A DNA stretch of 64,000 nt from an uncultured Syntrophaceae bacterium (GTDB lineage: Bacteria > Desulfobacterota > BSN033 > UBA1163), in NCBI GenBank assembly GCA_964517975.1, contig CAZFDM010000126.1, positions 1,818-65,817 on the forward strand, given 5' to 3'. The first letter of the stretch is position 1. Every line of letters begins with the position of its first letter. Shown piece by piece: positions 9,783 to 52,769 of this stretch. The translations under genes and the position numbers were made by a program. The notes under the pieces were generated by a model. It did no database searches. It was not told the DNA's origin and saw only the letters and a program-made list of their open reading frames with translations.

Positions 9783-10118
9783 CTACTTCTCCTCCCCTTT
9801 GCTCCAATATTCTCCCAAAAGGTCTCGACTGTGCTCGTCATCATGACAGTAAACACATAGATTTTCCCAATTTGACCCATCCGGCGGATTGTTCAAATAA
9901 TTCCCATCTTTATGGTGAACGGTCAGAAGATGTCGGGTCTTGGAATCAAACTCCCTTCCACACTTTGCGCAGATGAGACCATGGATCTGGAGGGAACGCT
10001 CCCGATACTCACTCCATTTGGGTTTATTCCTCTTAATTTCCTTTAAAATCTCTTCGACCGATTTCTGAGGAACACCTTTTTTAGGTCTTCGAATGATTCG
10101 ATAAGGTCTGTTTCTCAC
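9783..10118 (-). CDS. yajD: YajD-family HNH nuclease
   Basis: 111 aa, GTG start; LTVHHKDGN...DGSNWENLCVYCHDDEHS colinear with E. coli YajD. Confidence 0.75.
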   Translation of the reverse strand: MRNRPYRIIRRPKKGVPQKSVEEILKEIKRNKPKWSEYRERSLQIHGLICAKCGREFDSKTRHLLTVHHKDGNYLNNPPDGSNWENLCVYCHDDEHSRDLLGEYWSKGEEK

Positions 10119-10359
10119 CCAAAGAATCCCCTTTCATAAAATGACCTGAACCATTATATCATCCCTGCTTTTTGACATGCAACCCCAATCAAGAAATAGA
10201 CCCTGTGGCGCTTTTTGCCCATGGGTAAAAATCACTTGTTTAGGTCATCAAATTCTGCTATCTATAATTATATCTGAGAGTGGAACGTAGAATGGGGGCT
10301 TGATCATAAGTTCTCTCTCTTCTACCTTCCATCTTCCAATCAAAAAGGAGGTGGGGTTC

Positions 10360-11487
10360 ATGATCACTATTCCGGCCCACAAGGTAAGGCAGTTTGGGGT
10401 AGAATTTTATCAAACCTCTTTTACCTCAAATGACATTCAGAAATTAGTAAAATTTGAGGTATTGGATTACCCGATCCTTGAGGAGGGAGCAAAAAAGAAA
10501 AAACCATCTAAATCCAGTCCCATCAATTGGGAACTTCTTGAAAAAAGGATCGGCAGAAGTGAGGCGGCCTTCCAAAGGCCCATGATTCGGAAGAAGATTA
10601 GAGAACTCGTCCAATATTATTCTGACTGCCAGGAGGCCCAGAATCTTCCTGCCATCCCAGGGGCAGTCATTATGATCACGGAGAAGCGACTCAAGTTTTC
10701 ACCTCTTGGGAAGAATCCTAATATTGGAATGCTTCAGATTCCAGAAGAATCAGGGATCCTTCGATGTCTCGATGGTCAACACAGGCTCCTGGCTCTTGGT
10801 GCAAATCCGGATAAGGCGATGGAAATAGACGTCCCTGCTGTCCTTTTTGATTCATTGGATCCCAGACAGACCGTTGAGCTTTTTGTAACCATCAACGCCA
10901 AACATACTCGCCTCAACCCCTCCCACCTCATCTCACTGGCTGGGCGAAGACTCTATGCAGATCGCTATCAGGCTTTAGCCCATGATATCATCCGTCAACT
11001 CAATGAAGAGGAAGATTCTCCACTACGCGGTGAGATAAAGATATTGGGCGTTGGGAAAGGGAAAGTCTCCCAGGCCTCTCTGGCTGATGAGATGGTCGAT
11101 CTCTTTAACACTATTGAAAAGGTAGGTGGACCTGAGCGCTTTAAAGAATTTGAGGAGAATGGGAAACGCTTCTTCAGAAACTATTTTAAAGCCATTGTGG
11201 CGATCTTCCCAAAGGCATGGGCAGGCAGGAAATACAGTATAAAGACAGGGGCAGCACTCAGGGCCTTTATCCGGGTCAGCCCAGAGGTCATGGCTCGGTC
11301 AAAAGAGTTGAAAAAAGATGCCTTTGACTATTTTGGGATAAGGGAGGCGATTAAGAATTGGGGAGATCGAATCGGGGATGAGCGATTTGAGACCGAGGGG
11401 GAATGGAAGAGGAAACTTGCTGGCGGTACCCGAGGGACGGTAGATCTTCTGTCCCGTGAACTTCGAGATGCGATGAGAGTGACTTAA
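10360..11487 (+). CDS. DGQHR-domain protein (DndB/DpdB-like), stand-alone
   Basis: literal motif LRCLDGQHRLLAL; ATG at 10360 with GGAGG RBS (track ORF begins 10300); about 375 aa as for DndB-family proteins. Confidence 0.7.
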   Translation: MITIPAHKVRQFGVEFYQTSFTSNDIQKLVKFEVLDYPILEEGAKKKKPSKSSPINWELLEKRIGRSEAAFQRPMIRKKIRELVQYYSDCQEAQNLPAIPGAVIMITEKRLKFSPLGKNPNIGMLQIPEESGILRCLDGQHRLLALGANPDKAMEIDVPAVLFDSLDPRQTVELFVTINAKHTRLNPSHLISLAGRRLYADRYQALAHDIIRQLNEEEDSPLRGEIKILGVGKGKVSQASLADEMVDLFNTIEKVGGPERFKEFEENGKRFFRNYFKAIVAIFPKAWAGRKYSIKTGAALRAFIRVSPEVMARSKELKKDAFDYFGIREAIKNWGDRIGDERFETEGEWKRKLAGGTRGTVDLLSRELRDAMRVT

Positions 11488-11527
11488 GCAGGGGGAATCA
11501 ACTCATTTTTTCAAAAAAGGAGAAGGG

Positions 11528-12733
11528 ATGAAACGGTATCTGATCATTGGAGATGGCGTGGCAGGAGCAAGGGCGGCTGTAAAGATCCGTGAGGGCGACC
11601 CGAAAGGTGAGATAAGAATCTTTACCGATGAAGCCTATCCCTTTTATTACAGGGTTCGATTCCCAGAGTTGATTGCAGGCGAAGTAACCCTTCAAGGAAT
11701 TACCATTCATCCAGAAGCCTTCTACAAGGATAAGGAGATCTTTCTCCACTTGGAAGAAAGGATTATAGAGGTTTATCCTGATAAAGGAGAGGTCAAGAGC
11801 CAAAAAGAGAAGGTCTATCCTTATGATCTTTTGCTTATGGCCACAGGTGGATGTGCCTTTCTTCCTCCGCTCAAAGGGTCAGACAAAAAAGGGGTCTTCA
11901 CCCTTCGGACAATGAAGGATGCCATTGAGATAAAGGAGTTTTCTTCAGAGGTAAGGCAAGCGATCCTCATAGGTGGAGGCCTGGTGGGATTGGAAACAGG
12001 GGGAGCTCTCTTAAGGCGAGGCTTAAAGGTAGCGGTCATTGAACATAATCCGAGAATCCTTCCAAGGCAGATGGATCCTGAAGGGGCAACCTTTCTTCAG
12101 GAGAAGATGGAAAGGATGGGGTTTACTTTTTTCCTTAATGGAATCACAGAAGAGATCTTTGGAAAGGAGAAGGTAGAAGGGGTTCGCCTAAAAGATGGAA
12201 GAACCATTGAAGGGGAGATGGTGATCATCTCTGCAGGCGTACGGCCAAATGTTCAACTGGCACGGGCAATGGGATTGGAAATCAACAATGGGATTTTAGT
12301 CAATGATCGACTGGAGACAAGTTTTAGAGGGGTCTATGGAGCAGGGGATTGCTCTGAACATCGGGGGCGAGTCTATGGAATCTGGCCTGCAGCCCAGAAA
12401 CAGGGAGAGATCGCCGGAATGAATATGGCAGGAGGGGACGTTCTCTATGAAGGAACGGTCGTTTCAAATAAACTAAAAGTGGTGGGCATAGACCTCACCT
12501 CTGCAGGGGAAATTGATCCCGAAGGAAAACTGGAATGTGTGGTAAGAAGCGACCGAGAAAGATGTCACTACTGCAAAGTGACCTTTAAAGAGGACCGAGT
12601 GGTAGGCTGTATCTTCCTTGGAGAGACCAAAGGAGTCCCAGAAATCCTTCAGGCGATTGAGAATAAGATAGAGGTAAAGGATTTTAAGGAAGAGATCCTA
12701 AAAGAGGGGTTTGATTTTAAGAGGCTGAAATGA
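11528..12733 (+). CDS. FAD-dependent pyridine nucleotide-disulfide oxidoreductase (NirB small/NADH oxidase-like)
   Basis: two Rossmann dinucleotide motifs (IIGDGVAGARAA and ILIGGGLVGLETGG), GAGDC motif; 40 nt after DGQHR gene. Confidence 0.7.
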   Translation: MKRYLIIGDGVAGARAAVKIREGDPKGEIRIFTDEAYPFYYRVRFPELIAGEVTLQGITIHPEAFYKDKEIFLHLEERIIEVYPDKGEVKSQKEKVYPYDLLLMATGGCAFLPPLKGSDKKGVFTLRTMKDAIEIKEFSSEVRQAILIGGGLVGLETGGALLRRGLKVAVIEHNPRILPRQMDPEGATFLQEKMERMGFTFFLNGITEEIFGKEKVEGVRLKDGRTIEGEMVIISAGVRPNVQLARAMGLEINNGILVNDRLETSFRGVYGAGDCSEHRGRVYGIWPAAQKQGEIAGMNMAGGDVLYEGTVVSNKLKVVGIDLTSAGEIDPEGKLECVVRSDRERCHYCKVTFKEDRVVGCIFLGETKGVPEILQAIENKIEVKDFKEEILKEGFDFKRLK

Positions 12734-12751
12734 ATTGGCCGTGGGGTCTTC

Positions 12752-12786
12752 AAAAAAAATCCACCGTTCAGGTGGATTTTTTGTAT
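12752..12786 (+). terminator. rho-independent terminator (bidirectional-looking)
   Basis: aaaaaaatccacc-gttca-ggtggattttttg: 9-bp GC-containing stem, 5-nt loop, T-tract; 19 nt after oxidoreductase stop. Confidence 0.7.
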
Positions 12787-12935
12787 TGAGGAGGAAAGAG
12801 TTTTTTTCTTTTGTTAGTTAAATCTATACCATATCCACATTAAAAGAAGATTAAAAAAAGATTAAAATTTTCTAATCTTTCAACCCTTAAATTAGTCTTA
12901 AGGAATCAGAAAATAGGGCAAAAAAGGAGGGAGAG

Positions 12936-14134: not shown

Positions 14135-14743
14135 TTAAGTATTTAAAGGATTGAATAAATTTATCAAAAACCTCAAAGGCCGATGGGTCATAAACCCCAT
14201 CAAGGGCCTCCACTGGGTAATATAAAAGGCCACGATCCTCTCCCCACGTTTCGCAAAAATCACCTTAGCCTTTGCCTTCTCCTTTTTCACCGGATCCTTC
14301 CCTTCCACGGTGACTGATAGCCCTTCTTGCCCAAGGACCTGAACCTTCTTTCTCTCTAAGACTTCAAACTTTAATATGGCGTTCCAGAGAAACCTTTTAA
14401 AGAACTCCTTCTCCCTTCCCTCAAAGGTAGTTGAGCATCCAAATGGCTCCTCATCATAGGCAAAGATAGATTGGGATGGAAAAGGGCCTGGGTCTCTCCT
14501 CATAAATCCAAATGCAAACTCTCCCTCGTCCTCTCCTTCTGGCCAGAAGATATTCCAACCAAGTGGGGGTAACATAAACTCATATTCTCCCCCATAAATC
14601 ACTGTCCCCCTCGGAGTGACTTCATAGGGTTTCTTCTTCGTCTCCAAAGTGGCGCATCCCATCAGTAAAAGGAGATAGAAGATTAATAAAAATAGAGTAA
14701 GAGATTGTCTTCTCATCGTTTCTCTCCTGCTTATAAGGATCAT
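14135..14743 (-). CDS. hypothetical lipoprotein
   Basis: signal peptide with lipobox LLMGC; start overlaps stop of upstream peroxiredoxin gene; no recognised domain. Confidence 0.4.
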   Translation of the reverse strand: MILISRRETMRRQSLTLFLLIFYLLLLMGCATLETKKKPYEVTPRGTVIYGGEYEFMLPPLGWNIFWPEGEDEGEFAFGFMRRDPGPFPSQSIFAYDEEPFGCSTTFEGREKEFFKRFLWNAILKFEVLERKKVQVLGQEGLSVTVEGKDPVKKEKAKAKVIFAKRGERIVAFYITQWRPLMGFMTHRPLRFLINLFNPLNT

Positions 14744-15354
14744 TGATCTTCCTCGTTCAACTTCTTAAGGAATAGAAGGATCTCTTTGTAACGGGGAGAT
14801 CCATCCTGCACATATCGGATCACCCCTCTCTTATCAATAATGACTGTTCTTCGCGAAAAGACTGGATAGCCTTTAATCTCCAAAGAGGGTTCCACTCCAA
14901 AAGAGGCACCTAAAAACCCAGTCACATTGGAAAGAAGGGGAAAGGTTAAATCCAGACTTTTTGCCCAATATTTTAGGATAATCACATCATCTACACTGAC
15001 ACCCAGAACCCGGGCGTTGAAGCGCTCATAGAGGTAGAGATTCCTCTGATGGCCCTCCATCTCACCCGTTCAGATAGGGGTAAAGGCAGCCGGAAAGAAG
15101 GTGATGATGAGATGGTATTTCCCATAATACTCCTCTGCATAATTGATGAGTCGATCCTCGGTCGAAGGCAAGGTAAAATTCGGTGTCTCTCTTCCAACCA
15201 ACTCCATCTTCTTTTTTGCCTCTACATTGAAGCAAAGAAAGAGCAGTAAAACCATTACCCATCCCGACCACACCCAAAGTCCTTTTCTTCTCATGACAGA
15301 CCTCCTTCGAGGTTTTATAGACTTATTATAATAGGTTTTGTAAAGAGTTACCAT
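14740..15354 (-). CDS. AhpC/TSA-family peroxiredoxin with in-frame TGA (15070..15072) at the peroxidatic Cys position; candidate selenocysteine peroxiredoxin
   Basis: ORFs 15070..15354 and 14740..15060 share one frame, separated only by TGA; read-through gives FFPAAFTPI-U-TGEMEG...LGVSVDD...FPLLSN, the canonical F-T-P-x-C-T-x-E Prx motif; signal/TM N-terminus; Cys paralogue at 59443..60060. Confidence 0.6.
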
Positions 15355-16716: not shown

Positions 16717-17217
16717 TTATTGGTGAAGACTCACCTGATCTCCCTCAAGAGAAGGATGATGGGAAGGCAATCCCTTTCTCTTTGAGGATAAGGCCCTCTT
16801 TCTTAAAATGGCCATCAACCCAATAATGATCTTCTGTCCATCTCGCTTGGTCACTGGATTGGGCCTTTTGATAATCCGCTGGCAGAAGCCTTGATAATGG
16901 GCTTCTGTCCATCCCAATTCCCTTAAGAGGTAAGTGAGAAAGTCCTGCTGACTGGAGGTGATCGATTCCTCACCTTGAGGACTTCCAGCAGGGATAAGCC
17001 TTGATTTAGGACTTGGATGGTAGGGGTGGAGAAGAAGGCCTTTAAACCCCATCTCCTGGAAACGTGTCATCACCTTCTCAAATCCCTTTCGGGTCAATTC
17101 AGTTGAACTCTCTACCCCAGCCACTGCCTTGAGAATCTGGCGATAGGATTCCTCATCCAACCCAAGGTCCTCTTTGGCGATATGAACCAGTGCCTTCTTT
17201 TTCTTTCCGATTTTCAT
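16717..17217 (-). CDS. GemA/DUF1018-like phage-derived regulatory protein (orphan)
   Basis: KKKALVHIAKEDLGLDEESYRQIL...TELTRKGFEKVMTRFQEMGF resembles Mu GemA/gp16 family; start moved to internal Met (25 N-terminal residues of track ORF look non-coding). Confidence 0.4.
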   Translation of the reverse strand: MKIGKKKKALVHIAKEDLGLDEESYRQILKAVAGVESSTELTRKGFEKVMTRFQEMGFKGLLLHPYHPSPKSRLIPAGSPQGEESITSSQQDFLTYLLRELGWTEAHYQGFCQRIIKRPNPVTKRDGQKIIIGLMAILRKRALSSKRKGLPSHHPSLEGDQVSLHQ

Positions 17218-17454
17218 AAAAACATTATAACCCAAATCAAATAAAAAAAGGAGAGGGATAGGGATGGTATAACTCCAGCGAGATAAACTCATAAATGGAT
17301 GGAGGGCCTTTCCGATTATAGAAAAAGATATTATATTTCTTACCAGAATGGTTATTCATTCCCGCTTTCGATAGCACTTCTTAGAATCACTCGGTTTATA
17401 TGATATACACCTATTCGGGAAGGGTGGAGAAAGATAAATTCTAAGGGAGGGGGA

Positions 17455-22901: not shown

Positions 22902-24374
22902 ATGGAAGTATATATCTCAGGCGTTGGAATGACCAGGTTTGGGAGATCAAAGGACTCGCTTGATAAAATGATGGCTGAGGCAGCAGGGTTGGCCTTAAAA
23001 GATGCTGGGTTGGAAAGAGTAGACGCCATCTATATTGGGGTCATGAATGTGGAGGAATTCGTAGGGGATTCAAATGTCGCAGCCCTTTTGACCGATACTC
23101 TTCATCTCACTGGCCTTCCTTCCACTCGTGTGGAAACCGCTTCTTCTACAGGGGCAGGAGCGTTTGAGGCCGCCTTTTATGCGGTTGCCTCAGGTTATAT
23201 GAAAGAGGTTCTGGTCCTTGCTGGGGAGAAGATGAGTCACCTTCCTACTCCCAAGGTCACCCAAATCCTCTCTGAAGTGATTGATCGCTCCGAAAGGAGA
23301 TATGGTGCAACCATGCCTGCATTGGCAGCACTGATCGCCCAAAGGTATGCCAAGCAGTACGGTCTCTCTCCCTCTTTGCTTGAAGACATTCTTTCCCATG
23401 TAGCTATCAAAAACCACTCCAATGGATTTCTCAATCCAAATGCCCAATTCAAAAAAAGGATTACCAAAGAGGACTATCTAAAGAGTCAGATGGTTTCCTT
23501 TCCTTTGCGGCTTTATGATTGTGCACCCATTTCGGATGGAGCAGCCGCGATGGTACTCACTTCAAAACCTACCCCCGTAATCGTTTCCGGAATTGGTCAT
23601 GCCACAGATACCATGGCAGTTAGACATCGTGCTTCCCTCACTTCGTTCAATTCAACCAAAGAGGCCGCCCGAAGGGCCTACAGCATGGCAAAGGTCAATC
23701 CTTCAGAAATTCAGTTTGCGGAGGTTCATGATGCCTTCACCCCTTTTGAGATCATCGGGACAGAGGATCTGGGTTTTTTCTCCCCCGGAGAGGGATGGAA
23801 GGCCTTAAAAGAAGGCTTAACTGAACTGAGAGGAAAACTACCCATCAATCCATCTGGTGGATTGAAATCAAGAGGACATCCTGTGGGAGCCTCTGGCCTT
23901 GCTCAACTCGTGGAGATTGTTTACCAACTAAGAGGGGAAGCAGGGAACGAAAGGCAACTGAAACGGGCAGAGGTTGGCTTGGCCCAAAGCACAGGAGGAT
24001 TGGGGAATAACAACTTCGTTACCATCCTTGAACGAACCGATCGAAAAAGGGTAAAGGTGGGAGGTTGGGAATTGGAATATCATCCGGAGACTCCTATCCC
24101 AGAAAAAACCTCTGAAGGCCCTCCTGTCGAAGGGATGGGGGCTCTCGAAACCTTTACCATCCTTCATTCCCCCCCCCAAGGATTTCTATCACCCCTGGCC
24201 CTTGCCTTTGTCAAAAGGGGAGATGGAAAGAGGGTGATGGCGTGCAATCCTAACTACCGATCTCCGAAGAAACTAAAGATAGGAAAAGTGGTTTTTTTAA
24301 GGGTTCAAGAAGGACTTTATGTCTTTGAAAAATTAACCTTCTGGAAACGCTTGAAGCACTGGCTTAAGAGGTAA
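22902..24374 (+). CDS. thiolase-domain protein fused to C-terminal DUF35-type OB-fold domain
   Basis: N-terminal 390 aa thiolase-like (SCP2/archaeal type: VETASSTGAGAF, CAPISDGAAAMVL, NPSGGL..GHPVGASG); last ~100 aa PPQGF..PLALAFV..G.RVMA pattern of DUF35. Confidence 0.65.
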   Translation: MEVYISGVGMTRFGRSKDSLDKMMAEAAGLALKDAGLERVDAIYIGVMNVEEFVGDSNVAALLTDTLHLTGLPSTRVETASSTGAGAFEAAFYAVASGYMKEVLVLAGEKMSHLPTPKVTQILSEVIDRSERRYGATMPALAALIAQRYAKQYGLSPSLLEDILSHVAIKNHSNGFLNPNAQFKKRITKEDYLKSQMVSFPLRLYDCAPISDGAAAMVLTSKPTPVIVSGIGHATDTMAVRHRASLTSFNSTKEAARRAYSMAKVNPSEIQFAEVHDAFTPFEIIGTEDLGFFSPGEGWKALKEGLTELRGKLPINPSGGLKSRGHPVGASGLAQLVEIVYQLRGEAGNERQLKRAEVGLAQSTGGLGNNNFVTILERTDRKRVKVGGWELEYHPETPIPEKTSEGPPVEGMGALETFTILHSPPQGFLSPLALAFVKRGDGKRVMACNPNYRSPKKLKIGKVVFLRVQEGLYVFEKLTFWKRLKHWLKR

Positions 24375-25392
24375 TGATTTGGGCCATCTGGCCTGCATAG
24401 ATGACAATATACCGCATGGCAAACCCACCGATGAGGACAGAGGTTGTGATCACGCCAGAAATCCAGGGGTTGTGCTCTCTCAATTCTCCATGCCAGATGT
24501 AATGAGGGATCAATTCGTAAACCTCCAAAGAAAGAGGAAGAAGAATACCTACCCCGACCACAAGGGTCCAGAAAAGAAGAGTAAACTCACCTCCCATAAT
24601 GAGATGAACCGCGGCCACTGAACTTCGGGGTGAAACGTATAAGCCCAGGATAAAAAGGAAGACAGCAATGATTGAAAAGACCATAAGGGTAAAATCAATG
24701 GAATGAATCATAAATTTATTCGTATTGATGTTCTCCCGGCTCATTCCCCGAAAACCTTTGACAAAGCATCCTACAAAACAGATGGCAGCCGAGCCGGTCA
24801 TCATTGCAGAGATTAAGAATAACATTGGGAGCATTGGATTATTCCAGAAGGGTCGGGCAGTGAGCGCCCCTAAAAGGACGCCGGTATAGATTCCAACTCC
24901 TATGGAGATAGGGATTCCAAACCCTGCAGTCAATCCCCGGATCGTAGTGAGGTTTTCTCCTCTGAACCGACTTAAAAATCGGTTTGATTGGATTCGAGGA
25001 ATAATTCTTAAATAATCAAATTTCTCAGGAAGCCAGAGATAGAAATGAGCGAAACTAAACAGGGAGAAAAAGAGAAGAAGCCAAGCCCCAAGAGACATGA
25101 CTGAATTGGGTTGGAAGGTAAGGAATAATTTCCAGAAAAGATGGGGTCTTTCAAGATCGTAGATCAAGGCAATGATCCCAACGAGGACTGGAAAGGGAGC
25201 AATATAGGCTCCAATCCTCGTCATGGTCTCGTATCGTTCGCGGCCAAGAAAATAGGCCGTTGCGGAGATAATGAAAGCTCCAGCGCTTAGGCCTGCTGCA
25301 AAGAGATCAATGGCTACAATCCAATTCCAGATGATATGTATCGTCCCTTCCACCTTAAACTCCTTAATAGCCTTTACGGGCACGCGACACAC
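24364..25392 (-). CDS. NrfD/PsrC-family polytopic membrane anchor of molybdoenzyme complex
   Basis: 342 aa, 8+ predicted TM segments, last gene of psr-like operon. Confidence 0.65.
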   Translation of the reverse strand: MCRVPVKAIKEFKVEGTIHIIWNWIVAIDLFAAGLSAGAFIISATAYFLGRERYETMTRIGAYIAPFPVLVGIIALIYDLERPHLFWKLFLTFQPNSVMSLGAWLLLFFSLFSFAHFYLWLPEKFDYLRIIPRIQSNRFLSRFRGENLTTIRGLTAGFGIPISIGVGIYTGVLLGALTARPFWNNPMLPMLFLISAMMTGSAAICFVGCFVKGFRGMSRENINTNKFMIHSIDFTLMVFSIIAVFLFILGLYVSPRSSVAAVHLIMGGEFTLLFWTLVVGVGILLPLSLEVYELIPHYIWHGELREHNPWISGVITTSVLIGGFAMRYIVIYAGQMAQIITS

Positions 25393-25456
25393 CTGCTCGC
25401 GCCCAGGGTCAGGGTTGCGCTTTCCTTCGATCCGTCGCCGACGAATCTTTCTAACT

Positions 25457-25714
25457 TCAGCCCCCTCCTATTTTGGGGACAAAGGAAGGATCTGCTTTCC
25501 CCATGGAGGCATCCCGATAGAGGGTAGGAGTATCCTTCCAATAACTTAACTCAATGGGTTCCTCTACTTTCTCTTGACCGCTTGTGAGATTCCAAAGGTT
25601 TTCCTGATTCCCAAATGCTTGAGATTTCTCCTTCTGCTTACATCCGATCAAAAGGAATAATCCTCCAAGAGTGAGGGCCTCAAATAACCTCTGGATAAAT
25701 TTCCTTCGTTCCAT
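25457..25714 (-). CDS. small Tat-signal lipoprotein candidate
   Basis: internal Met of track ORF 25457..25810 gives MERRKFIQRLF..LLIGC: twin-arginine motif plus lipobox; overlaps torD-like stop by 35 nt; purine-rich SD. Confidence 0.3.
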   Translation of the reverse strand: MERRKFIQRLFEALTLGGLFLLIGCKQKEKSQAFGNQENLWNLTSGQEKVEEPIELSYWKDTPTLYRDASMGKADPSFVPKIGGG

Positions 25715-26339
25715 CACTCCTCTTCTCCAATCTCTCTTTTTCTTTTTGGATGAAAAGATGAAGAACCTCCATGAGGCTCCAATAAAATGGATGGGCATTT
25801 GCCCTTTCACACGCTCCCTTAAGAAAAGGGATCCAATTGAGATGATCCTTTATAAACCTCTCAATGACTTCATCCCCTGCTCCTTGATAGAGATAAGCCA
25901 AAAACTCCAGTTCAATGATCAGATGATCCGGCATTCCCTTAAAGGAATCTGAGACCTCTATCCCCCATTGTTGAAAAAGGGTTGAAAGGTGAATGGCTGA
26001 ATCGCCCATCAGAAACCCCTTCTCTTTTGCAAAAGGAAGACAGCAATGAGGGTCTTGGGTCCAGGGCTTATAAAAAGACTCCACCAATGAAATTCTCTCC
26101 CCACCCGTATCGGAGAAGAGTCGGTAATACTCCTCCTTTAAATCCTTCAAAAGGATTTGGGAAGGCGATTCAGGCAAAAACCCTTTTAAACATCCGATCT
26201 CCCCTTCGAAAAATTGGACATAGGCCTTAAAAAAGGAATAGAGGTGACCTTGAGTTAACTGCTCCACCATTTCCTGATCCGGAGGGCAGAAAAGAGACGA
26301 AACGACTTTACAAAAAAAGGCTTTCTCTTTATGAGGCAT
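25680..26339 (-). CDS. TorD/DmsD-family molybdoenzyme maturation chaperone
   Basis: 219 aa, sits between psrB-like and membrane subunit, TorD-like helical pattern (EYYRLF, FLAYL). Confidence 0.6.
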   Translation of the reverse strand: MPHKEKAFFCKVVSSLFCPPDQEMVEQLTQGHLYSFFKAYVQFFEGEIGCLKGFLPESPSQILLKDLKEEYYRLFSDTGGERISLVESFYKPWTQDPHCCLPFAKEKGFLMGDSAIHLSTLFQQWGIEVSDSFKGMPDHLIIELEFLAYLYQGAGDEVIERFIKDHLNWIPFLKGACERANAHPFYWSLMEVLHLFIQKEKERLEKRSDGTKEIYPEVI

Positions 26340-26344
26340 TCCTG

Positions 26345-26884
26345 CTATCCCCTTTTATAGTAAATTCTTGGTTTGGTGTTGAGTTCTGCCTTAAACTGTT
26401 TCAACTTATGTTTAATAATGTATTGGGAGATCTCACTATTGGGATCATCCAGATCTCCAAACATCCTTACCCCGGTCATACAGGTCGTCACACATGCTGG
26501 CTTTTCACCCTTTTCAACAAACTCAATACAGAACCGACATTTTTCAATATAACCCTCTTTTTTAATGATTCGAACATTATAGGGACAGGCGGCAATACAA
26601 TACTTACAGCCGATGCATTTATTCTTATCTACCAAGACTACCCCGTCCTTCCTTTTGTGGGAGGCTCCAGTAGGACAAACTTTGACACAAGGAGGGTTAT
26701 CACAATGCTGACACTGGACAGGTAAGAATTCTCTTGTATAGTTGGGAAAACTTCCATATTCTCTTTCTTCGAGATGGTTATAGGCCTCCTTTTCTTCAAG
26801 GCTGTTCTGATTATGGCAGGCCACACGGCAAGCATGGCAACCCACACATTTTGTTTCATCAATCACCATTCCATATCGAGCCAT
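26345..26884 (-). CDS. 4Fe-4S ferredoxin-type subunit of molybdopterin oxidoreductase (PsrB/DmsB-like)
   Basis: four CxxCxxCxxxCP clusters in 179 aa. Confidence 0.85.
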   Translation of the reverse strand: MARYGMVIDETKCVGCHACRVACHNQNSLEEKEAYNHLEEREYGSFPNYTREFLPVQCQHCDNPPCVKVCPTGASHKRKDGVVLVDKNKCIGCKYCIAACPYNVRIIKKEGYIEKCRFCIEFVEKGEKPACVTTCMTGVRMFGDLDDPNSEISQYIIKHKLKQFKAELNTKPRIYYKRG

Positions 26885-26950
26885 AACTCACCAAATTTCA
26901 GATTGTGAATTTTAGAGTTAAATCTTATTTTTTAGGCTTTGCTCTATGCC

Positions 26951-29143
26951 CTATGCCTTATTCACTTGAACCACAATTTCCGATGCCATCACATGTCCTA
27001 CCGTTGGATCGAAATAAGTTGGAAGAAAATCGTTATAGGAGAGCCCAATATCATAAGCCGTTTTTAAATGTTTTGAGAAAATCCCATAACCGCTCGGAAG
27101 CCATACACAGGAGGGATGGATCCCCTCAATGAGACGGACTCGGATTCTCCCCTCACCGACTAAAGATTTAATCCTTACCCAATCCCCATCTTTAAGACCT
27201 AACTGCTCCCCTCTCTTTTTATTCATCCATAGTCGAATCAAATCATACCGGTGGCTCAATGCCATGAGGATGGGTTGATTGGCTGTCATGGAGTGAGTAT
27301 GGATCGCCTGTTTTCCATGGAGCAGTCGAAAGGAATGAGGATCCTTCGGATCAGGTGAAACCAAGGGTTCCTCCCACCTTGGAATGGGTGGGATCTCTAA
27401 ACGGTCCAAGGTTCGACAATAAATCTCAACCTTTCCTGAGGGAGTATTTAACTTATCGAATCCCTCCTTCCATTTCTCTCCTACAAATAGGACACCTTTC
27501 TCCTTCAACTGCTCAAGGGTCACGCCTAAAGGTTTGAGTCTGAGCCGATTGGCTTCCTCAATATCAAAACTGAAATACTTGCCCACCCCTAAATGCTTTG
27601 CCAATTCAATGATAATCTGAGTCCCAGGTCGAGTATCGAAGAGAGGTTTGACCACCTGTTGTTGAAGGCTCACCTGAGCCCTCTTTCCACTATGTTTTGT
27701 ATCGATTGCTTCGGTTCTCTCCAAGTAGAAGGATTCAGGTAAGACATAATGGGCTATGGAAGCGGTTTCAGAAAGAACGGTATCGATCACCACCAAGAGT
27801 TCAAGTTTTTTATAGCCTGCAATCACTCTCTTTGGATTTGGATTGGTCCGAAGGGGATTATAATGATACACGAATCCAGCTTTCAATTCCCCCCGAAGTG
27901 CCAATTCTGGAATGGCATGGGCAATCCCATCTCCATAGCTTCCCAAGGGATACCTCCCTGGCACCCCCGTTCCATCCAGTTTACCTATTGTGGGAAGTTC
28001 AGGTGCAGGGTGTTTAGGTTGAAGCTCCCCAAGATTTGCAGTCTTCGGGAAATAGATTCCTCCCTCTCGGTTAAGATTTCCTAAAAGACTATTGACAATG
28101 GCTAAGGCTCGAGCAGTCTGAAAACTATTCAGATATTGGGCTCCGAAGGCCCCATGGTAACCTCTATGGATAAGGGCTTTAGGTTTAACCTGAGCCATCT
28201 CACGGGTGATTCGTATAATCGTTTGCGATGGAATCTCACAAACCTTTTCAGCCCACTCCGGGGGATAATTGATAATCTGTTCCTCCAATTGTTCAAAGCC
28301 CACGGTTTTTTCTGCTACAAATTTCTTATCATATAACTCTTCTTTCACCATCACATTGATCATGGCTAAAAGGAGGGCTAAATCAGTTCCCGGTTTTATC
28401 GGAAGCCATTCATCAGCGAGGATGGCTGTTTCACTGTGTCTCGGATCCACAACCACCAGTTTGGCTCCTTTGGATTTAGCCTCTACGATTCTTTTCATCT
28501 GACCCAGATCAATACCCCCCGCGGGATTACGTCCAATAATCACAATATACCGAGAATTTGATAGATCGTTTGAAGGGAGTTCTCCAACAGTGTATACCCA
28601 ACCTGCATTTCTTGCCGTATAACAGGTAGATCCGTGGGTAAAATAGTGGGGACTCCCCAAGGCATGCATGAATCTTAATGCATAAAGATGGTTTGGCTGT
28701 GGGTAATTGACCCAGAAGATACTTTGAGGGCCATGTTCCAACATAAGGAGATTAATTTTTTGGGAAATCTCTTGATAGGCTTGCTCCCAGGAGATAGGTT
28801 CGAAACGGCTCCCTACTCTTTTTAAAGGGCTTTTAATCCGGTCGGGATTATATAAGTCATGAAGATATCCGTGTCCCTTGGGGCATACAACGCCTAAATT
28901 CCCATTGGCCTCTGGATTCCCTTCGATCTTCCAAAGCCTTCCGTTCTTCACATAGGCATAAATCCCGCATCGATTCCCACATCCATTACAGATTGTAGGG
29001 ACACGAGTGATCGGAGATTCAACCGATGCCTCAACCCATTTCTTAAAATCTATCCATTCGTTCTTAAGGGCGAGAGCACCAGCAGTCCCACCTGCTACTT
29101 TTAGGAAACCTCTTCTTGTAAGCCTAAGAGGGAAACGCTCCAT
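26951..29143 (-). CDS. Tat-exported molybdopterin oxidoreductase catalytic subunit (polysulfide/thiosulfate/tetrathionate reductase-like)
   Basis: RRGFLKVAGG twin-arginine signal, CNGCGNRCG Fe-S motif, 730 aa. Confidence 0.8.
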   Translation of the reverse strand: MERFPLRLTRRGFLKVAGGTAGALALKNEWIDFKKWVEASVESPITRVPTICNGCGNRCGIYAYVKNGRLWKIEGNPEANGNLGVVCPKGHGYLHDLYNPDRIKSPLKRVGSRFEPISWEQAYQEISQKINLLMLEHGPQSIFWVNYPQPNHLYALRFMHALGSPHYFTHGSTCYTARNAGWVYTVGELPSNDLSNSRYIVIIGRNPAGGIDLGQMKRIVEAKSKGAKLVVVDPRHSETAILADEWLPIKPGTDLALLLAMINVMVKEELYDKKFVAEKTVGFEQLEEQIINYPPEWAEKVCEIPSQTIIRITREMAQVKPKALIHRGYHGAFGAQYLNSFQTARALAIVNSLLGNLNREGGIYFPKTANLGELQPKHPAPELPTIGKLDGTGVPGRYPLGSYGDGIAHAIPELALRGELKAGFVYHYNPLRTNPNPKRVIAGYKKLELLVVIDTVLSETASIAHYVLPESFYLERTEAIDTKHSGKRAQVSLQQQVVKPLFDTRPGTQIIIELAKHLGVGKYFSFDIEEANRLRLKPLGVTLEQLKEKGVLFVGEKWKEGFDKLNTPSGKVEIYCRTLDRLEIPPIPRWEEPLVSPDPKDPHSFRLLHGKQAIHTHSMTANQPILMALSHRYDLIRLWMNKKRGEQLGLKDGDWVRIKSLVGEGRIRVRLIEGIHPSCVWLPSGYGIFSKHLKTAYDIGLSYNDFLPTYFDPTVGHVMASEIVVQVNKA

Positions 29144-29161
29144 ATTTCAGATTCTTTTTTA

Positions 29162-29204
29162 GGGGAGATAGATTTATAAAATGGATTTGCTTCTCTATCT
29201 CCCC
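29162..29204 (-). promoter_or_regulatory. 10-bp stem hairpin between rhodanese and psrA genes (intra-operon structure)
   Basis: ggggagatag...(23 nt)...ctatctcccc; no U-tract in mRNA sense; a weak GG-N10-GC sigma-54-like element overlaps it. Confidence 0.3.
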
Positions 29205-29210
29205 TCATTT

Positions 29211-29669
29211 TTATCTTTCTACGGGATAACCGGCCTTTACCCATTCCTCAAAGTGAGCATCCATAAGAACAGCCTGTTTGTAACCCATTTCGTTCAGAGT
29301 CTTTGTGGCCAGGGCTGATCGGGCAGCAGTGAGGCAATAGACATAGATTTTAGCCTCCTTATCTTGAATCTTATCCCAGATCACAAATTCCAACTTTCCA
29401 CGAGAGACATTGATCGCTCCTGGGAGATGACCTGCCTTAAACTCATCTGGATCTCTGACGTCAAGGATGTAGGCCTTCTCTTTTTTATCAATGGCGGCCT
29501 TCACATCAGCCGGAGTAACCTTCTTGATCTCCGCCTTTGCCTTTGCGACCCAATCCTTAACGACTGTGGTTGTCCAGGTAGGGACTTTCGGCTTATCCTG
29601 AGCCAATGAGAGGCTAACCATTGAAAGAACGAAAACCCATGCTAATATCCAAACCCAAACTTTCTTCAT
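29211..29669 (-). CDS. periplasmic single-domain rhodanese (Sud-like polysulfide-sulfur transferase)
   Basis: signal peptide, rhodanese fold with active-site loop YCLTAARS, directly upstream of psrA. Confidence 0.7.
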   Translation of the reverse strand: MKKVWVWILAWVFVLSMVSLSLAQDKPKVPTWTTTVVKDWVAKAKAEIKKVTPADVKAAIDKKEKAYILDVRDPDEFKAGHLPGAINVSRGKLEFVIWDKIQDKEAKIYVYCLTAARSALATKTLNEMGYKQAVLMDAHFEEWVKAGYPVER

Positions 29670-29728
29670 CTTTTTTCACCTCCTTTCTCTACCCAAGGCG
29701 TATATAATTGATAGCGATTGATCATTGG

Positions 29729-30085
29729 TTAAAAGCGATCTAAGTTCAGAAGTTCTTCCAATTGATTAAGGTTAAAGGGCTTGACCAAGTACCCCCGAAT
29801 CCCAGCCTTTAAGGCCTCCTGCCTCAATTCCTCATCATTTTTTACAGTCATCAGAATAGAGAAAATCTTTGGATTTTGACTTATCCATTCTTTTAACATC
29901 TCTATTCCCTCTCCATCTGGGAAGTGGTCTCCACAGAGAACAAGATCGAAAGGAATCTTTTTAAAAAGGGAATCTCCTTCTTTTTTGCCACATGCAACAA
30001 AAACCTCACAGTTTTTCCGATGACTAATAAAATAGGAAAGCGATTCCCCAATGGTCTTATCTTTTTCTACGATGAGTATCTTCAT
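29729..30085 (-). CDS. single-domain response-regulator receiver (CheY-like)
   Basis: 118 aa REC domain, KPF motif near C-terminus. Confidence 0.65.
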   Translation of the reverse strand: MKILIVEKDKTIGESLSYFISHRKNCEVFVACGKKEGDSLFKKIPFDLVLCGDHFPDGEGIEMLKEWISQNPKIFSILMTVKNDEELRQEALKAGIRGYLVKPFNLNQLEELLNLDRF

Positions 30086-30379
30086 GATTTTAAAATGAAC
30101 TCAACGGATACGAACAAAATAGCAACTTTAATGCCACTCTTTCTTAAGTCGGGTATTTTAAAAGGAAGATTGTAAAAACATCTTTTAAATCATGAAGATT
30201 AAAATTTTTTAAAATTTTAACAGGGAAGAAAAGCGAAGCATATGGAGATGAAGTTCTGAGGGATAACAAATATTGATGGAAAAAATTTTGGGATAACTTA
30301 TTGAGATGTTTAAATAATAATAAATCGTCTGTTTTTAAACATTCTGTTTGCAATCGAACATCAAAAATACTCGCGCAAT

Positions 30380-31741
30380 TTATCCCTTTATTCCATACTT
30401 TTCCATCCGGTAGAGAAGAGCAGAGCGAGAGATACCGAGAAGTTTGGCGGCTTGCATTTTATTTCCTTTTTTCATCTTTAACGCTTCGATAATATAATTT
30501 TTTTCGACTTCTTCAAGAATCACTCCCTGGGGAGGGATGACAGGTTTAAACTCTCCCTTGTCTTCTCGTTTTGATAGAAAAGCCAAATGTTTTTGATCAA
30601 TCTGATCCCCTTTTTCCAACAGGATGATTCGTTCGACTACATTTCGAAGCTCACGGATATTCCCAAACCAGGGATAAGAAAGGATGATTTCTTCTGCTTC
30701 TGGAGAGATATGGAAAAACCCCTTTTTAAACTGTTCGTTAAAATGATTCATGAAGAATTTAAAAAGGGGGAGGATATCTTCCTTTCGTTCTCTCAAGGGA
30801 GGGATGGTCAATTTGACCACATTCAGTCTAAAGTAGAGGTCCTCACGGAAATTTCCTCTTTTGATCTCGGACTCTAAATCCTTATTCGTGGCTGCGATGA
30901 TCCGAACATCTGCCTTTCTCTTTTCAACCCCTCCTACCCTGAAGTATTCCTTCTCCTCAAGAACTCTTAAGACCTTCACCTGGGCTGAGGGAGACAGTTC
31001 CCCCACTTCATCCAGAAATAGGGTCCCTTTTTCTGCCGCCTCAACCTTGCCGATCTTCCCCTTTTCCAAGGCACCCGTAAAGGAACCCTTTTCATAACCA
31101 AACAGTTCACTCTCGAAAAGGTCCTTAGGGATAGCCCCACAGTTAATTGGAATAAAAGGGAATGAAGAACGGGGACTCAAAAAATGGATATATTCAGCGA
31201 GGAGTTCTTTACCTGTACCGGTTTCCCCCTCAAGGAGGACCGTAGTGTCTGAACCCTGGGCAACCTTTTCAGCCAATTCCAAAACCTCTCTCATCTTTTG
31301 ACTAACCCCGATGATCCCACCCGACCGAAACTTTTCCTGGTATTGGGTGCGAAGCCATTCCACCTCTTTCTTCAAACGTATCCTTTCCAGTCCTTTCTTG
31401 ATCAACTCCTCAACCTGGTCTAATTCAAAAGGTTTGATAAGAAAATCAAACGCTCCCATCTTCATAGAGGTAACCGCCATCTCAATCGACCCCTGAGCAG
31501 TCATGATGATCACAGGAATATCGGGGGCCTCCTCTTTAACTCTACGGAGCACCTCATCCCCGTTGATCCCTGGAAGCCAATGATCTAAGAGGATAAGGTC
31601 GGGTCTCTCTTTTTTAAATTGTTCTAAACCCTCCTCCCCGGTTCGGGCAGTAACGACATCATACCCAGACGATCTTAAGGCCACTTCAAGAGAGTCTTTT
31701 AGGATAGGTTCATCATCGACCACTAAGATTTTAAACTGCAT
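30380..31741 (-). CDS. sigma-54-dependent response regulator (NtrC family)
   Basis: REC domain, AAA+ GETGTGKE Walker A, GAFTGA sigma-54 contact motif, C-terminal Fis-type HTH. Confidence 0.9.
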   Translation of the reverse strand: MQFKILVVDDEPILKDSLEVALRSSGYDVVTARTGEEGLEQFKKERPDLILLDHWLPGINGDEVLRRVKEEAPDIPVIIMTAQGSIEMAVTSMKMGAFDFLIKPFELDQVEELIKKGLERIRLKKEVEWLRTQYQEKFRSGGIIGVSQKMREVLELAEKVAQGSDTTVLLEGETGTGKELLAEYIHFLSPRSSFPFIPINCGAIPKDLFESELFGYEKGSFTGALEKGKIGKVEAAEKGTLFLDEVGELSPSAQVKVLRVLEEKEYFRVGGVEKRKADVRIIAATNKDLESEIKRGNFREDLYFRLNVVKLTIPPLRERKEDILPLFKFFMNHFNEQFKKGFFHISPEAEEIILSYPWFGNIRELRNVVERIILLEKGDQIDQKHLAFLSKREDKGEFKPVIPPQGVILEEVEKNYIIEALKMKKGNKMQAAKLLGISRSALLYRMEKYGIKG

Positions 31742-31780
31742 GACTTCCTCACTTCACGCCTAACGCACAGAGCCAATGGG

Positions 31781-49616: not shown

Positions 49617-49617
49617 A

Positions 49618-49878
49618 ATGCCAGAGATTAGTAGGTTTTTTGGTATCATCATCGCGATGTTCCATCGTGAACATTATCCACCACATTTCCACGCAAGGTA
49701 TGGAAGTTATATGGCATCGATCAGAATAGAAGATCTCGCAGTAGTTGAGGGGTATCTTCCTCCAAGAGCATTGGGGCTTGTTATGGAATGGGCTTATATG
49801 CATAAAGAGGAGCTTCTAAATGATTGGAAATTAGCAATGGAAAGAAAACCTCTTCTCCCGATCGAGCCGTTAAAGTAA
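49618..49878 (+). CDS. DUF4160-family protein
   Basis: 86 aa, GIIIAMFHREHYPPHFHARYG pattern. Confidence 0.55.
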   Translation: MPEISRFFGIIIAMFHREHYPPHFHARYGSYMASIRIEDLAVVEGYLPPRALGLVMEWAYMHKEELLNDWKLAMERKPLLPIEPLK

Positions 49879-49890
49879 GGAGGTGGCTTT

Positions 49891-50199: not shown

Positions 50200-50201
50200 T
50201 T

Positions 50202-52718: not shown

Positions 52719-52769
52719 ACCATTATCATCATATCTAACACCTTTGTTGTGTTCATTTAATAAAGAAGA

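What the first reader, a model, noticed from the sequence alone, without database searches (positions are those of the whole stretch)
10360..12733. Orphan DGQHR-domain (DndB/DpdB-like) protein without dnd/dpd partners, operonic with an FAD/NAD(P) oxidoreductase
Seen in sequence: ORF 10360..11487 carries the literal DGQHR motif (LRCLDGQHRLLAL) in a ~375-aa protein with strong RBS. 40 nt downstream is a two-Rossmann FAD-dependent disulfide-oxidoreductase-type gene, followed by a clean terminator at 12752..12786. Established knowledge: DGQHR proteins are known as DndB (regulator/nickase-like component of DNA phosphorothioation) and DpdB (7-deazaguanine DNA modification), always with dndCDE or dpd partners. 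None of those partners is present within 10 kb on either side. The neighbours are a housekeeping-type yajD HNH gene, a macro-domain gene and an unknown tandem-repeat protein. Inference: a stand-alone DGQHR (ParB-like nuclease fold) with a redox partner could be an uncharacterised DNA-modification or defense-related two-gene system, or a decayed remnant of a dnd cluster.
Basis: partly seen in the sequence, partly recalled or inferred. Interest (0 to 1): 0.55.

Follow-up and report, generated by a model that had tools for sequence, protein, structure and literature searches.

The report
Stand-alone conserved DGQHR (ParB-fold) protein
The gene is a real, strongly conserved stand-alone relative of the DNA-modification helper proteins DndB and DpdB, found as a chromosomal gene in several soil and groundwater bacterial phyla, and the oxidoreductase next to it is only a local neighbour, not a partner.

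Summary
ORF 10360-11487 encodes a 375-aa DGQHR-domain protein (TIGR03187 124 bits, cutoff 58.85). It is followed 40 nt later by a 401-aa FAD/NAD(P) flavoprotein and a strong terminator. No dnd or dpd gene lies anywhere in the 64-kb window.

The gene is an orphan, but it is not half of a two-gene system. In 83 related loci the oxidoreductase is adjacent in only 8, all from the closest Syntrophaceae-like lineage. Even inside the same syntenic block it can be missing (L005, L009). No other neighbour is shared across lineages.

It is not a decayed remnant. dN/dS is 0.03, length stays near 375 aa, identity across phyla is 52-69%, and all three DGQHR motifs are invariant. Sequence clusters follow taxonomy, there are no close plasmid or viral copies, and the gene has its own conserved promoter.

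Its two-domain architecture matches true DpdB (hhalign 98.6%, residues 3-321). It fails the DpdB and dnd-associated DGQHR equivalog cutoffs.

Best reading: a vertically inherited, housekeeping-type NTP-gated, DNA-binding ParB/Srx-fold dimer whose cellular role is unknown. This is an uncharacterised variant of a known kind, of moderate interest.

The parts
10226..10266 (+). Conserved promoter block of the DGQHR gene: A-rich upstream stretch, -35 TTGTTT (10236-10241), 17-nt spacer, TGc-extended -10 TATCTA (10259-10264).
   Evidence: An approximately 40-nt block is nearly invariant in 10 of 11 relatives of the closest lineage although synonymous sites are saturated. It is also present in L012, where the gene lies in a different context. 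Reading it as a promoter is inference from the consensus.
10281..10332 (+). 5' UTR hairpin (GGAAcGTAGAA ... TTCTACcTTCC), optional in relatives.
   Evidence: MFE is -21.5 kcal/mol with z=-2.1. A similar hairpin is present in L001 and L007 but absent or different in L004, L005, L010 and L011. No Rfam family matches.
10346..10353 (+). Shine-Dalgarno sequence AGGAGGTG of the DGQHR gene.
   Evidence: Read directly from the sequence and conserved in relatives.
10360..11487 (+). DGQHR-domain protein, 375 aa. The N-terminal ParB/Srx-like NTP-binding domain spans about aa 1-200 and carries QR (aa 72-73), DGQHR (aa 138-142, nt 10771-10785) and FxxxN (aa 175-179). The C-terminal all-helical domain spans about aa 200-375.
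11528..12733 (+). FAD/NAD(P)H flavoprotein of the rubredoxin/ferredoxin-reductase (NirB N-terminal-like) type, 401 aa. It is a lineage-specific downstream neighbour, probably co-transcribed here, and not a conserved partner.
   Evidence: Based on (Pyr_redox_2 + Rubredoxin_C; full-length matches 3klj, 1xhc, 8c0z_E; adjacent in only 8 of 83 loci; no terminator in the 40-nt spacer).
12750..12789 (+). Intrinsic terminator, usable in both directions: A-run, TCCACC-GTTCA-GGTGGA, T-run.
   Evidence: One search gives -17.2 kcal/mol with z=-4.2; the sequence is.

Best explanation
ORF 10360-11487 encodes a stand-alone, chromosomally fixed member of the DGQHR branch of the ParB/Srx superfamily, and it has the same two-domain architecture as DpdB and DndB. 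It belongs to a distinct orthologous group that is inherited vertically in a Syntrophaceae-like lineage of Thermodesulfobacteriota, in Methylomirabilota (Rokubacteria), Binatia, two classes of Acidobacteriota, and Polyangia. The gene has its own promoter and no fixed gene partner. The most likely mode of action is inferred by analogy with DpdB and DndB. In that model a homodimer binds and hydrolyses a nucleoside triphosphate, probably ATP, at the QR/DGQHR/FxxxN pocket of the N-terminal domain. Nucleotide-driven closing and opening would then control binding of DNA by the basic C-terminal helical domains. The protein would therefore act as an NTP-gated DNA-binding switch with a housekeeping or regulatory role: autoregulation or transcriptional control, chromosome organisation, or help for an enzyme encoded elsewhere. 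It is not a component of a phosphorothioation, deazaguanine or mobile defence module. The downstream rubredoxin/ferredoxin-reductase-type flavoprotein is an unrelated gene that happens to sit behind it, and probably shares its transcript, in part of one lineage. What is shown: family membership, architecture, conservation, selection, and lack of conserved partners. What is inferred: NTPase activity, dimerisation, DNA binding and cellular role.
For: Family and architecture:
- TIGR03187 scores 124 bits against a cutoff of 58.85, and PF14072 scores above its cutoff.
- PADLOC DpdB models align residues 63-350.
- hhalign against a bona fide DpdB, encoded next to dpdA, gives 98.6% probability over residues 3-321.
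- The QR, DGQHR and FxxxN motifs, defined in PMC4619093, are invariant in 31 diverse members.

Nucleic-acid binding:
- The family is uniformly basic, with median pI 9.6, and both domains have pI near 9.4.

Precedents for the mechanism:
- DpdB is a homodimeric, DNA-stimulated ATPase (PMC10164549).
- DndB is a homodimeric autorepressor (PMC4507180).
- A DndB-like protein binds ATP and GTP (PMC12704722).

Housekeeping character:
- dN/dS is 0.03, and synonymous sites are saturated while 80-85% of residues are kept.
- DGQHR is among the best conserved genes of its syntenic block: 85% identity against 75% for the oxidoreductase.
- Sequence clusters coincide with taxon labels.
- More than 5,500 metagenomic homologues were found. 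The top 120 hits to the window protein are all 82-100% identical and 373-416 aa long, most of them 375 aa. Vicinamibacterales orthologues are at least 90% identical.
- There are no close copies on plasmids (at most 29% identity) or viral contigs (at most 36%, partial).
- The surrounding genes are housekeeping genes.

Independence from neighbours:
- The gene's own promoter block is conserved, even in a different genomic context.
Against: - No biochemical or genetic data exist for any member of this orthologous group.
- The C-terminal domain has no structural match, so assigning it DNA binding rests on pI and on analogy.
- High conservation across phyla could also fit an enzyme acting on a protein or small molecule, as in the Srx, SerK and SbnI branches of the fold.
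- Partners encoded elsewhere in these genomes could not be searched, because only +/-8-10 kb around each gene was available.
- The taxon labels come from MAGs, and a few are clearly odd (for example 'Bifidobacteriaceae' and 'Verrucomicrobiia').
Confidence: 0.5

Rival explanations
1. One reading: the DGQHR protein and the flavoprotein form a dedicated two-gene DNA-modification or defence system, in which the redox enzyme supplies chemistry for a DNA modification.
For: The two genes are 40 nt apart on the same strand, with no terminator between them and a strong terminator after the second. The pair recurs in 8 related loci with gaps of 19-101 nt.
Against: The pair is confined to part of one lineage. 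It is missing in L005 and L009, which keep the same flanking genes, and in L006, L012 and all 70 or so loci from other phyla. The oxidoreductase evolves faster than DGQHR: 66-89% against 81-96% identity, and dN/dS 0.08 against 0.03. It belongs to the ordinary rubredoxin/ferredoxin-reductase family of anaerobes. It has no PADLOC hit. The context is not a defence island.
Confidence: 0.04
2. The gene is a decayed remnant of a former dnd or dpd cluster.
For: It is the only DGQHR/DndB-type gene in the window and has no partners.
Against: The ORF is intact and all motifs are invariant. dN/dS is 0.03. Length is constant across five or more phyla, the promoter is conserved, and thousands of near-identical-length metagenomic homologues exist.
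Confidence: 0.01
3. The protein is the trans-encoded B component (regulator or ATPase) of a dnd, dpd or similar DNA-modification cluster located elsewhere in the genome.
For: It shares its architecture with DpdB. DpdA and DpdB do not form a stable complex, so physical gene linkage is not mechanistically required (PMC10164549). dndA is often unlinked from the other dnd genes (PMC3632139). The rest of the genome could not be inspected.
Against: It scores far below the equivalog cutoffs: DpdB 58.5 against 300, and the dnd-associated DGQHR model 46 against 450. The gene sits at lineage-specific, stable chromosomal positions and follows taxonomy, which is unlike the patchy, island-borne distribution of dnd and dpd clusters. 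No DpdA/D/J/K homologue lies within +/-8 kb in any of 83 loci.
Confidence: 0.1
4. The protein is an ATP-dependent enzyme acting on a protein or small molecule, like the Srx, SerK and SbnI branches of the fold. One version would be a sulfiredoxin-like repair enzyme tied to the nearby redox genes.
Against: The Srx catalytic Cys position is Gln (DGQHR against FGGCHR), and the nearby Cys136 is not conserved. The redox neighbours are lineage-specific. The whole length, including the C-terminal domain, aligns with DpdB, a DNA-stimulated ATPase. The pI is basic.
Confidence: 0.1
5. The protein is a nuclease or nickase, forming a GmrSD/SspE/DndI-like activity together with the divergently transcribed HNH gene at 9783-10118.
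For: In GmrSD, SspE and DndI, ParB-like DUF262/DGQQR domains work with HNH domains (PMC4619093, PMC11662687). An HNH gene lies 240 nt upstream on the other strand.
Against: The HNH gene is a small separate protein found only in the closest lineage. It is absent in L011, L006 and L012 and in all other phyla. The C-terminal domain of the DGQHR protein has no HNH or EHxxP motif.
Confidence: 0.03

Closest known systems
DpdB (DGQHR/DGQQR ATPase of the Dpd 7-deazaguanine DNA-modification system)
   Same: Both have about 375 aa and the same two-domain layout: an N-terminal ParB-like NTPase domain and a C-terminal helical domain. hhalign gives 98.6% probability over residues 3-321, and BLASTP identity is 29%. 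The QR, DGQxR and F/LxxxN motifs are shared.
   Different: The window protein scores 58.5 bits against the 300-bit equivalog cutoff. Its motif is DGQHR rather than DGQQR. There is no dpdA or other dpd gene in the window or in 83 loci. It is chromosomal, vertically inherited and in housekeeping contexts, rather than in an island or on a plasmid.
DndB (regulator of dndBCDE DNA phosphorothioation)
   Same: Both match Pfam PF14072 and carry the DGQHR motif. DndB is a homodimeric DNA-binding protein that represses its own promoter (PMC4507180). The window gene likewise carries a strongly conserved promoter block.
   Different: The dnd-associated DGQHR model TIGR04172 scores 46 against a cutoff of 450, and no other DndB-specific model was listed at E up to 0.1. 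There are no dndCDE genes nearby. No TACG-N10-CGTA-type palindrome is evident in the conserved promoter block.
DUF262/GmrS-type domains of GmrSD, SspE, DndI and BrxU
   Same: They share the ParB/Srx fold with QR, DGQ(Q/H)R and FxxxN motifs (PMC4619093). There are weak hits to PF03235 and to BrxU.
   Different: The window protein has no fused HNH/DUF1524 nuclease domain, it is not in a defence context, and its PF03235 score is below the cutoff.
ParB, PadC, KorB and Noc (CTP-dependent DNA clamps)
   Different: There is no PF02195 hit, no GERRxRA box and no recognisable HTH. No parA or parS context was noted among the neighbours that were examined.
Plasmid-borne orphan DGQHR modules (Burkholderia glumae p22s2p, Providencia plasmids, L. 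plantarum pCD033)
   Same: These are also DGQHR proteins without dnd or dpd partners.
   Different: They are only 22-26% identical to the window protein and sit on mobile elements. The Burkholderia and Providencia genes are each followed by a homologous partner of about 300 aa (28% identity, E=2e-24), which is absent from the window and from all family loci.

Membership tests
DGQHR domain family (TIGR03187 / PF14072) | Score above the curated HMM cutoffs | tested here: met
   TIGR03187 scores 124.3 bits against 58.85, covering residues 6-311 and the full model 1-276. PF14072 scores 56.4 against 29.1.
DGQHR domain family (TIGR03187 / PF14072) | Three signature motifs: the QR pair, DGQHR and FxxxN (PMC4619093) | tested here: met
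   Q72-R73, D138-G-Q-H-R142 and F175..N179 are invariant in 12 and in 31 diverse members.
DGQHR domain family (TIGR03187 / PF14072) | ParB/Srx fold of the N-terminal domain | tested here: met
DndB (dnd phosphorothioation regulator) | Match to a dnd-specific equivalog model | tested here: not met
   TIGR04172 scores 46.2 against 450. No other DndB-specific model appears at E up to 0.1.
DndB (dnd phosphorothioation regulator) | Encoded next to dndCDE | tested here: not met
   Pfam scans of the ORFs across the 64-kb window found no PAPS-reductase-like DndC, DndD or DndE. No neighbour family is shared by more than 21 of 84 loci, and the families that were identified are unrelated to dnd.
DndB (dnd phosphorothioation regulator) | ATP-modulated binding to palindromes in its own promoter | not testable with these tools
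   A conserved promoter block exists, but binding cannot be tested here.
DpdB (Dpd system ATPase) | Match to the equivalog model NF041060 | tested here: not met
   The score is 58.5 bits against a cutoff of 300. PADLOC DpdB scores 66.8 bits, which indicates homology only.
DpdB (Dpd system ATPase) | Encoded next to dpdA (a TGT-like gene) and other dpd genes | tested here: not met
   tblastn with DpdA, DpdD, DpdJ and DpdK from pPOL9A gave no hit in the window or in 83 loci.
DpdB (Dpd system ATPase) | DNA-stimulated ATPase activity of a homodimer | not testable with these tools
   Only the shared architecture was shown.
Sulfiredoxin | Catalytic Cys in the FGGCHR motif, in a small single-domain protein | tested here: not met
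   Gln occupies that position (DGQHR). Cys136 is not conserved. The protein has 375 aa in two domains.
GmrSD / SspE / DndI type IV restriction enzymes | DUF262 fused to, or strictly paired with, an HNH/DUF1524 nuclease | tested here: not met
   There is no HNH domain in the protein. The neighbouring HNH gene is separate, divergent and found only in the closest lineage.
Canonical ParB (chromosome or plasmid partition) | PF02195 ParBc domain with the GERRxRA box, an HTH domain, and a ParA/parS context | tested here: not met
   There is no PF02195 hit at E up to 0.1, and no ParA gene among the neighbours.

The most novel reading that the evidence does not exclude
This orthologous group is a previously unrecognised housekeeping use of the DGQHR/ParB-Srx NTPase fold. 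It would be an NTP-gated DNA clamp or DNA remodeller, fixed in the core genomes of abundant uncultivated soil and groundwater lineages (Vicinamibacteria, Thermoanaerobaculia, Methylomirabilota, Binatia, a Syntrophaceae-like lineage, Polyangia). It would act in chromosome biology: nucleoid organisation, global or auto-regulation, or licensing a trans-encoded DNA repair or modification enzyme in the way DpdB licenses DpdA. It would not act in phage defence.
Probability: 0.3. Interest if true: 0.6.

Novelty: new variant of a known kind. Interest (0 to 1): 0.4.

Why it matters
DGQHR proteins are known only as accessories of DNA-modification and defence systems: DndB, DpdB, and the related DUF262 domains of GmrSD, SspE and DndI. 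This subfamily behaves like a core gene. It is under strong purifying selection, follows taxonomy, has no mobile copies and has no fixed partner. It is also abundant in soil metagenomes. [quoted passage not shown] It would also show what the DGQHR module does on its own, which could clarify the still unclear mechanistic role of DpdB and DndB. For annotation, the result warns against reading 'DndB/DGQHR' hits as evidence of phosphorothioation or defence.

Tried and rejected
- Oxidoreductase as partner: rejected by tblastn of all window neighbours against 83 loci.
- Any conserved partner: all-against-all clustering of 5,119 ORFs from 84 loci found none. The largest non-self clusters were out-of-frame shadow ORFs of the DGQHR gene itself in high-GC genomes.
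- PDB sequence search with the family profile gave nothing meaningful.
- The afdb50 fold library was not available.
- Exact-sequence look-ups of two other window proteins failed, so the rest of the window was annotated with Pfam instead.
- Rfam and tRNA scans of the window gave no hits.
- A shared upstream operator across phyla was sought. Each lineage has its own sigma-70-like promoter, and no common palindrome was seen.
- Literature searches for DGQHR, DndB-like and PF14072 found no study of a stand-alone chromosomal subfamily.
- A cultured carrier was sought. The top hits were metagenomic, and those that carried a source name were MAGs.
- More distant relatives at 30-36% identity (P0158, P0220, P0249, P0253) also lack dnd or dpd neighbours and share no context with each other.
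Full report
**1. Observation**

The ORF at 10360-11487 (+) is real. It starts 6 nt after an AGGAGGTG Shine-Dalgarno sequence and encodes 375 aa containing LRCLDGQHRLLAL. It matches the NCBIfam DGQHR domain model TIGR03187 over its full length, with 124.3 bits against a cutoff of 58.85 and E=7e-36. It also matches Pfam PF14072 (DndB) above the gathering score.

The three motifs that define the domain in the literature are the QR pair, DGQHR and FxxxN (PMC4619093). They are present here as Q72-R73, D138-R142 and F175..N179, and they are invariant in alignments of 12 and of 31 diverse relatives.

Forty nucleotides downstream, ORF 11528-12733 encodes a 401-aa Pyr_redox_2 + Rubredoxin_C flavoprotein. 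The spacer has no significant hairpin. After the second gene there is a strong intrinsic terminator at -17.2 kcal/mol with z=-4.2. Co-transcription in this genome is therefore plausible.

The flavoprotein's full-length structural relatives are the C. acetobutylicum and P. furiosus NirB-family/NADH:rubredoxin-type reductases and the ferredoxin:NADH-oxidoreductase-like subunit in 8c0z. It lacks the Cys of the CoA-disulfide reductase/NADH oxidase type. It is therefore an ordinary electron-transfer flavoprotein of anaerobes.

**2. Absence of dnd and dpd**

Pfam scans of essentially all sizeable ORFs in the 64-kb window show housekeeping genes. These include a Mur ligase, LptD, rmlABCD-like genes, UDP-glucose dehydrogenase, HAD, Trm112, HNH, Macro, DUF1178, a BFN-PDZ protein, a beta-CASP RNase, a molybdopterin oxidoreductase cluster, two-component regulators, HisG and a Lon-like protease.

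No DndA/C/D/E or Dpd component was found. tblastn with DpdA, DpdD, DpdJ and DpdK from a genuine dpd cluster finds nothing in the window or in any related locus.

The protein scores far below the equivalog cutoffs for DpdB (58.5 against 300) and for the dnd-associated DGQHR family (46 against 450). The 'orphan' part of the finding stands.

The premise that DGQHR proteins always have dnd or dpd partners does not. A 7.9-kb L. plantarum plasmid and Burkholderia and Providencia plasmids carry DGQHR genes without such partners. In the Burkholderia and Providencia plasmids the DGQHR gene is followed by a homologous partner of about 300 aa that is unrelated to anything here.

**3. The gene pair is not conserved**

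A word-indexed search found more than 5,500 homologues. The top 120 are 82-100% identical and 373-416 aa long, most of them 375 aa; those that carry a source name are from Thermodesulfobacteriota MAGs.

A scan of one genome per GTDB species returned 80 loci at 52-96% identity. The lineages are:
- Syntrophaceae-like Thermodesulfobacteriota (79-96%)
- Methylomirabilota/Rokubacteria (62-69%)
- Tectomicrobia, Polyangiaceae and Binatia (53-60%)
- Acidobacteriota, both Thermoanaerobaculia and Vicinamibacterales (52-55%)

tblastn of every window neighbour against the 83 loci shows the oxidoreductase next to DGQHR in only 8, all from the closest lineage. Within that lineage, L005 and L009 keep the flanking genes but go directly from DGQHR to the 185-aa ORF. 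L004 keeps the oxidoreductase but lacks the 185-aa ORF. L006 and L012 have the DGQHR gene in an entirely different context.

All-against-all clustering of 5,119 ORFs from 84 loci found no neighbour family in more than 21 loci. The lineage-specific neighbours, confirmed by Pfam, are:
- GreA, convergent, in Rokubacteria
- LemA + HtpX in Thermoanaerobaculia
- LamB/YcsF in Vicinamibacterales
- HlyD-type and acyl-CoA synthetase genes

More distant relatives at 30-36% identity also sit in unrelated contexts.

**4. Not a remnant, and it behaves like a core gene**

Against L004 (dS 0.70), dN/dS is 0.03, compared with 0.08 for the oxidoreductase. Against the other relatives, synonymous sites are saturated while 80-85% of residues are retained.

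In the shared syntenic block, DGQHR (85% identity to L001) is as conserved as RmlB, UDP-glucose dehydrogenase and the Macro protein. It is more conserved than the oxidoreductase (75%) or the HNH protein (73%).

Average-linkage clusters of the proteins coincide with the taxon labels, apart from a few evidently mislabelled MAG contigs. Within-cluster identity is 76-87% and between-cluster identity is 50-65%. Vicinamibacterales orthologues from soil metagenomes are at least 90% identical over 120 distinct 90%-clusters.

There is no close relative in 72,556 plasmids (best 29%) or in IMG/VR viral contigs (best 24-36%, partial).

The gene carries its own promoter-like block, TTGTTT-17 nt-TGcTATCTA at 10236-10264. 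This block is nearly invariant in the closest lineage despite saturated synonymous sites, and it accompanies the gene into a different context in L012. Rokubacteria have their own conserved TTGACA...TAGAGT promoter.

**5. What the protein looks like**

The AlphaFold2 model, built from a 36-sequence alignment, has pLDDT 80.7 and pTM 0.54. It shows an N-terminal alpha/beta domain (about aa 1-200) and a C-terminal all-helical domain (about aa 200-375). There are disordered stretches at aa 37-51 and 182-194.

A profile of the family aligns with a genuine DpdB over residues 3-321 at 98.6% probability, and BLASTP identity is 29%. The whole architecture, not just the motif, is therefore DpdB/DndB-like. 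The family is uniformly basic, with median pI 9.6, and both domains have pI near 9.4.

**6. How it most likely works**

This section is inference. DpdB is a homodimeric ATPase whose activity is stimulated by DNA. It is proposed to close around DNA through its ParB-like domain, with the DGQQR motif at the nucleotide site (PMC10164549). DndB is a homodimeric repressor of its own promoter (PMC4507180). A DndB-like protein binds ATP and GTP (PMC12704722).

Three observations fit an NTP-gated, dimeric DNA-binding switch: the invariant nucleotide-site motifs, the shared architecture and the basic charge. That is the best-supported mechanism.

The gene has strong lineage-level conservation, its own promoter, variable housekeeping neighbours and no mobile copies. 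Its role is therefore more likely chromosomal or regulatory than defensive.

The rivals are a trans-acting component of a distant modification cluster, an Srx/SerK-type enzyme, and a nuclease working with the neighbouring HNH protein. All are weaker. The Srx catalytic Cys is replaced by Gln, and Cys136 is not conserved. The HNH gene is specific to the closest lineage. The equivalog models fail. A trans-encoded partner cannot be excluded, because only +/-8-10 kb around each gene could be seen.

**7. Verdict**

It is an uncharacterised, housekeeping-type subfamily of a known domain family, which makes it a new variant of a known kind.

Interest is moderate (0.4). There is no new chemistry or architecture here. 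It is, however, a clean and abundant example of a DGQHR protein that has left the defence and modification context. It is worth a biochemical look and useful as an annotation caveat.

Noticed in passing
window 47966-53567: There is a type III-like restriction-modification remnant. An N6_N4 DNA methylase appears split into two ORFs: 47966-48823 matches the N-terminal part of PF01555 and 48903-49616 matches the C-terminal part. It is followed by a ResIII/DEAD helicase (50202-52718) and a DUF72 protein (52770-53567). The split suggests a frameshifted or otherwise disrupted methylase.
   Followed up: no
window 16717-17292 (-): A phage Mu GemA-like gene (PF06252) sits between a BFN-PDZ bifunctional-nuclease-domain gene and a metallophosphoesterase gene. 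It is conserved at the same syntenic position in L010, L011 and L016 (70-73% identity), so it looks like a domesticated gene rather than part of a prophage.
   Followed up: partly
window 14135-15060 (-): A 106-aa ORF matches only the C-terminal half of the AhpC/TSA profile (positions 55-124). It overlaps by 4 nt a 202-aa ORF with no Pfam hit. The pair is conserved in L001, L004, L005 and L011, so this may be an unusual split or truncated peroxiredoxin-like module.
   Followed up: partly
window 10281-10332 (+): A hairpin in the 5' UTR of the DGQHR gene folds at -21.5 kcal/mol with z=-2.1. A similar hairpin with sequence changes is seen in L001 and L007, but it is absent or different in L004, L005, L010 and L011. 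No Rfam family matches. It may be a stability or regulatory element.
   Followed up: partly
It has no Pfam hit. It is conserved at 75-82% in the closest lineage, directly after DGQHR or after the oxidoreductase, but is missing in L004.
   Followed up: partly
L102 8734-10785; L103 8881-10751: Plasmid-borne DGQHR genes of Burkholderia glumae and Providencia are each followed by a homologous hypothetical protein of about 300 aa (28% identity, E=2e-24). This suggests a distinct mobile two-gene DGQHR module that is neither dnd nor dpd. The partner has no homologue in the window or in the 83 family loci.
   Followed up: partly
L036, L038, L039, L059 (about 130-200 nt upstream of the DGQHR start): In the Polyangiaceae-type loci, the sequence just upstream of the DGQHR gene reads in translation as ...GRGEGRSKKSAEQAAAMEALEAL. 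This looks like the C-terminal dsRNA-binding end of RNase III, so the gene would lie directly downstream of rnc there. The reading was made by eye and not checked with an HMM.
   Followed up: no
window 24364-33310 (-): This stretch holds a polysulfide/thiosulfate-reductase-like cluster: a molybdopterin oxidoreductase (26951-29143), a 4Fe-4S subunit (26345-26884), a NrfD membrane subunit (24364-25392), a delta-type chaperone (25680-26339) and a rhodanese (29211-29669). Next to it are a sigma-54 response regulator and a PAS histidine kinase. A 450-aa ORF at 33429-34781 has no Pfam hit.
   Followed up: no
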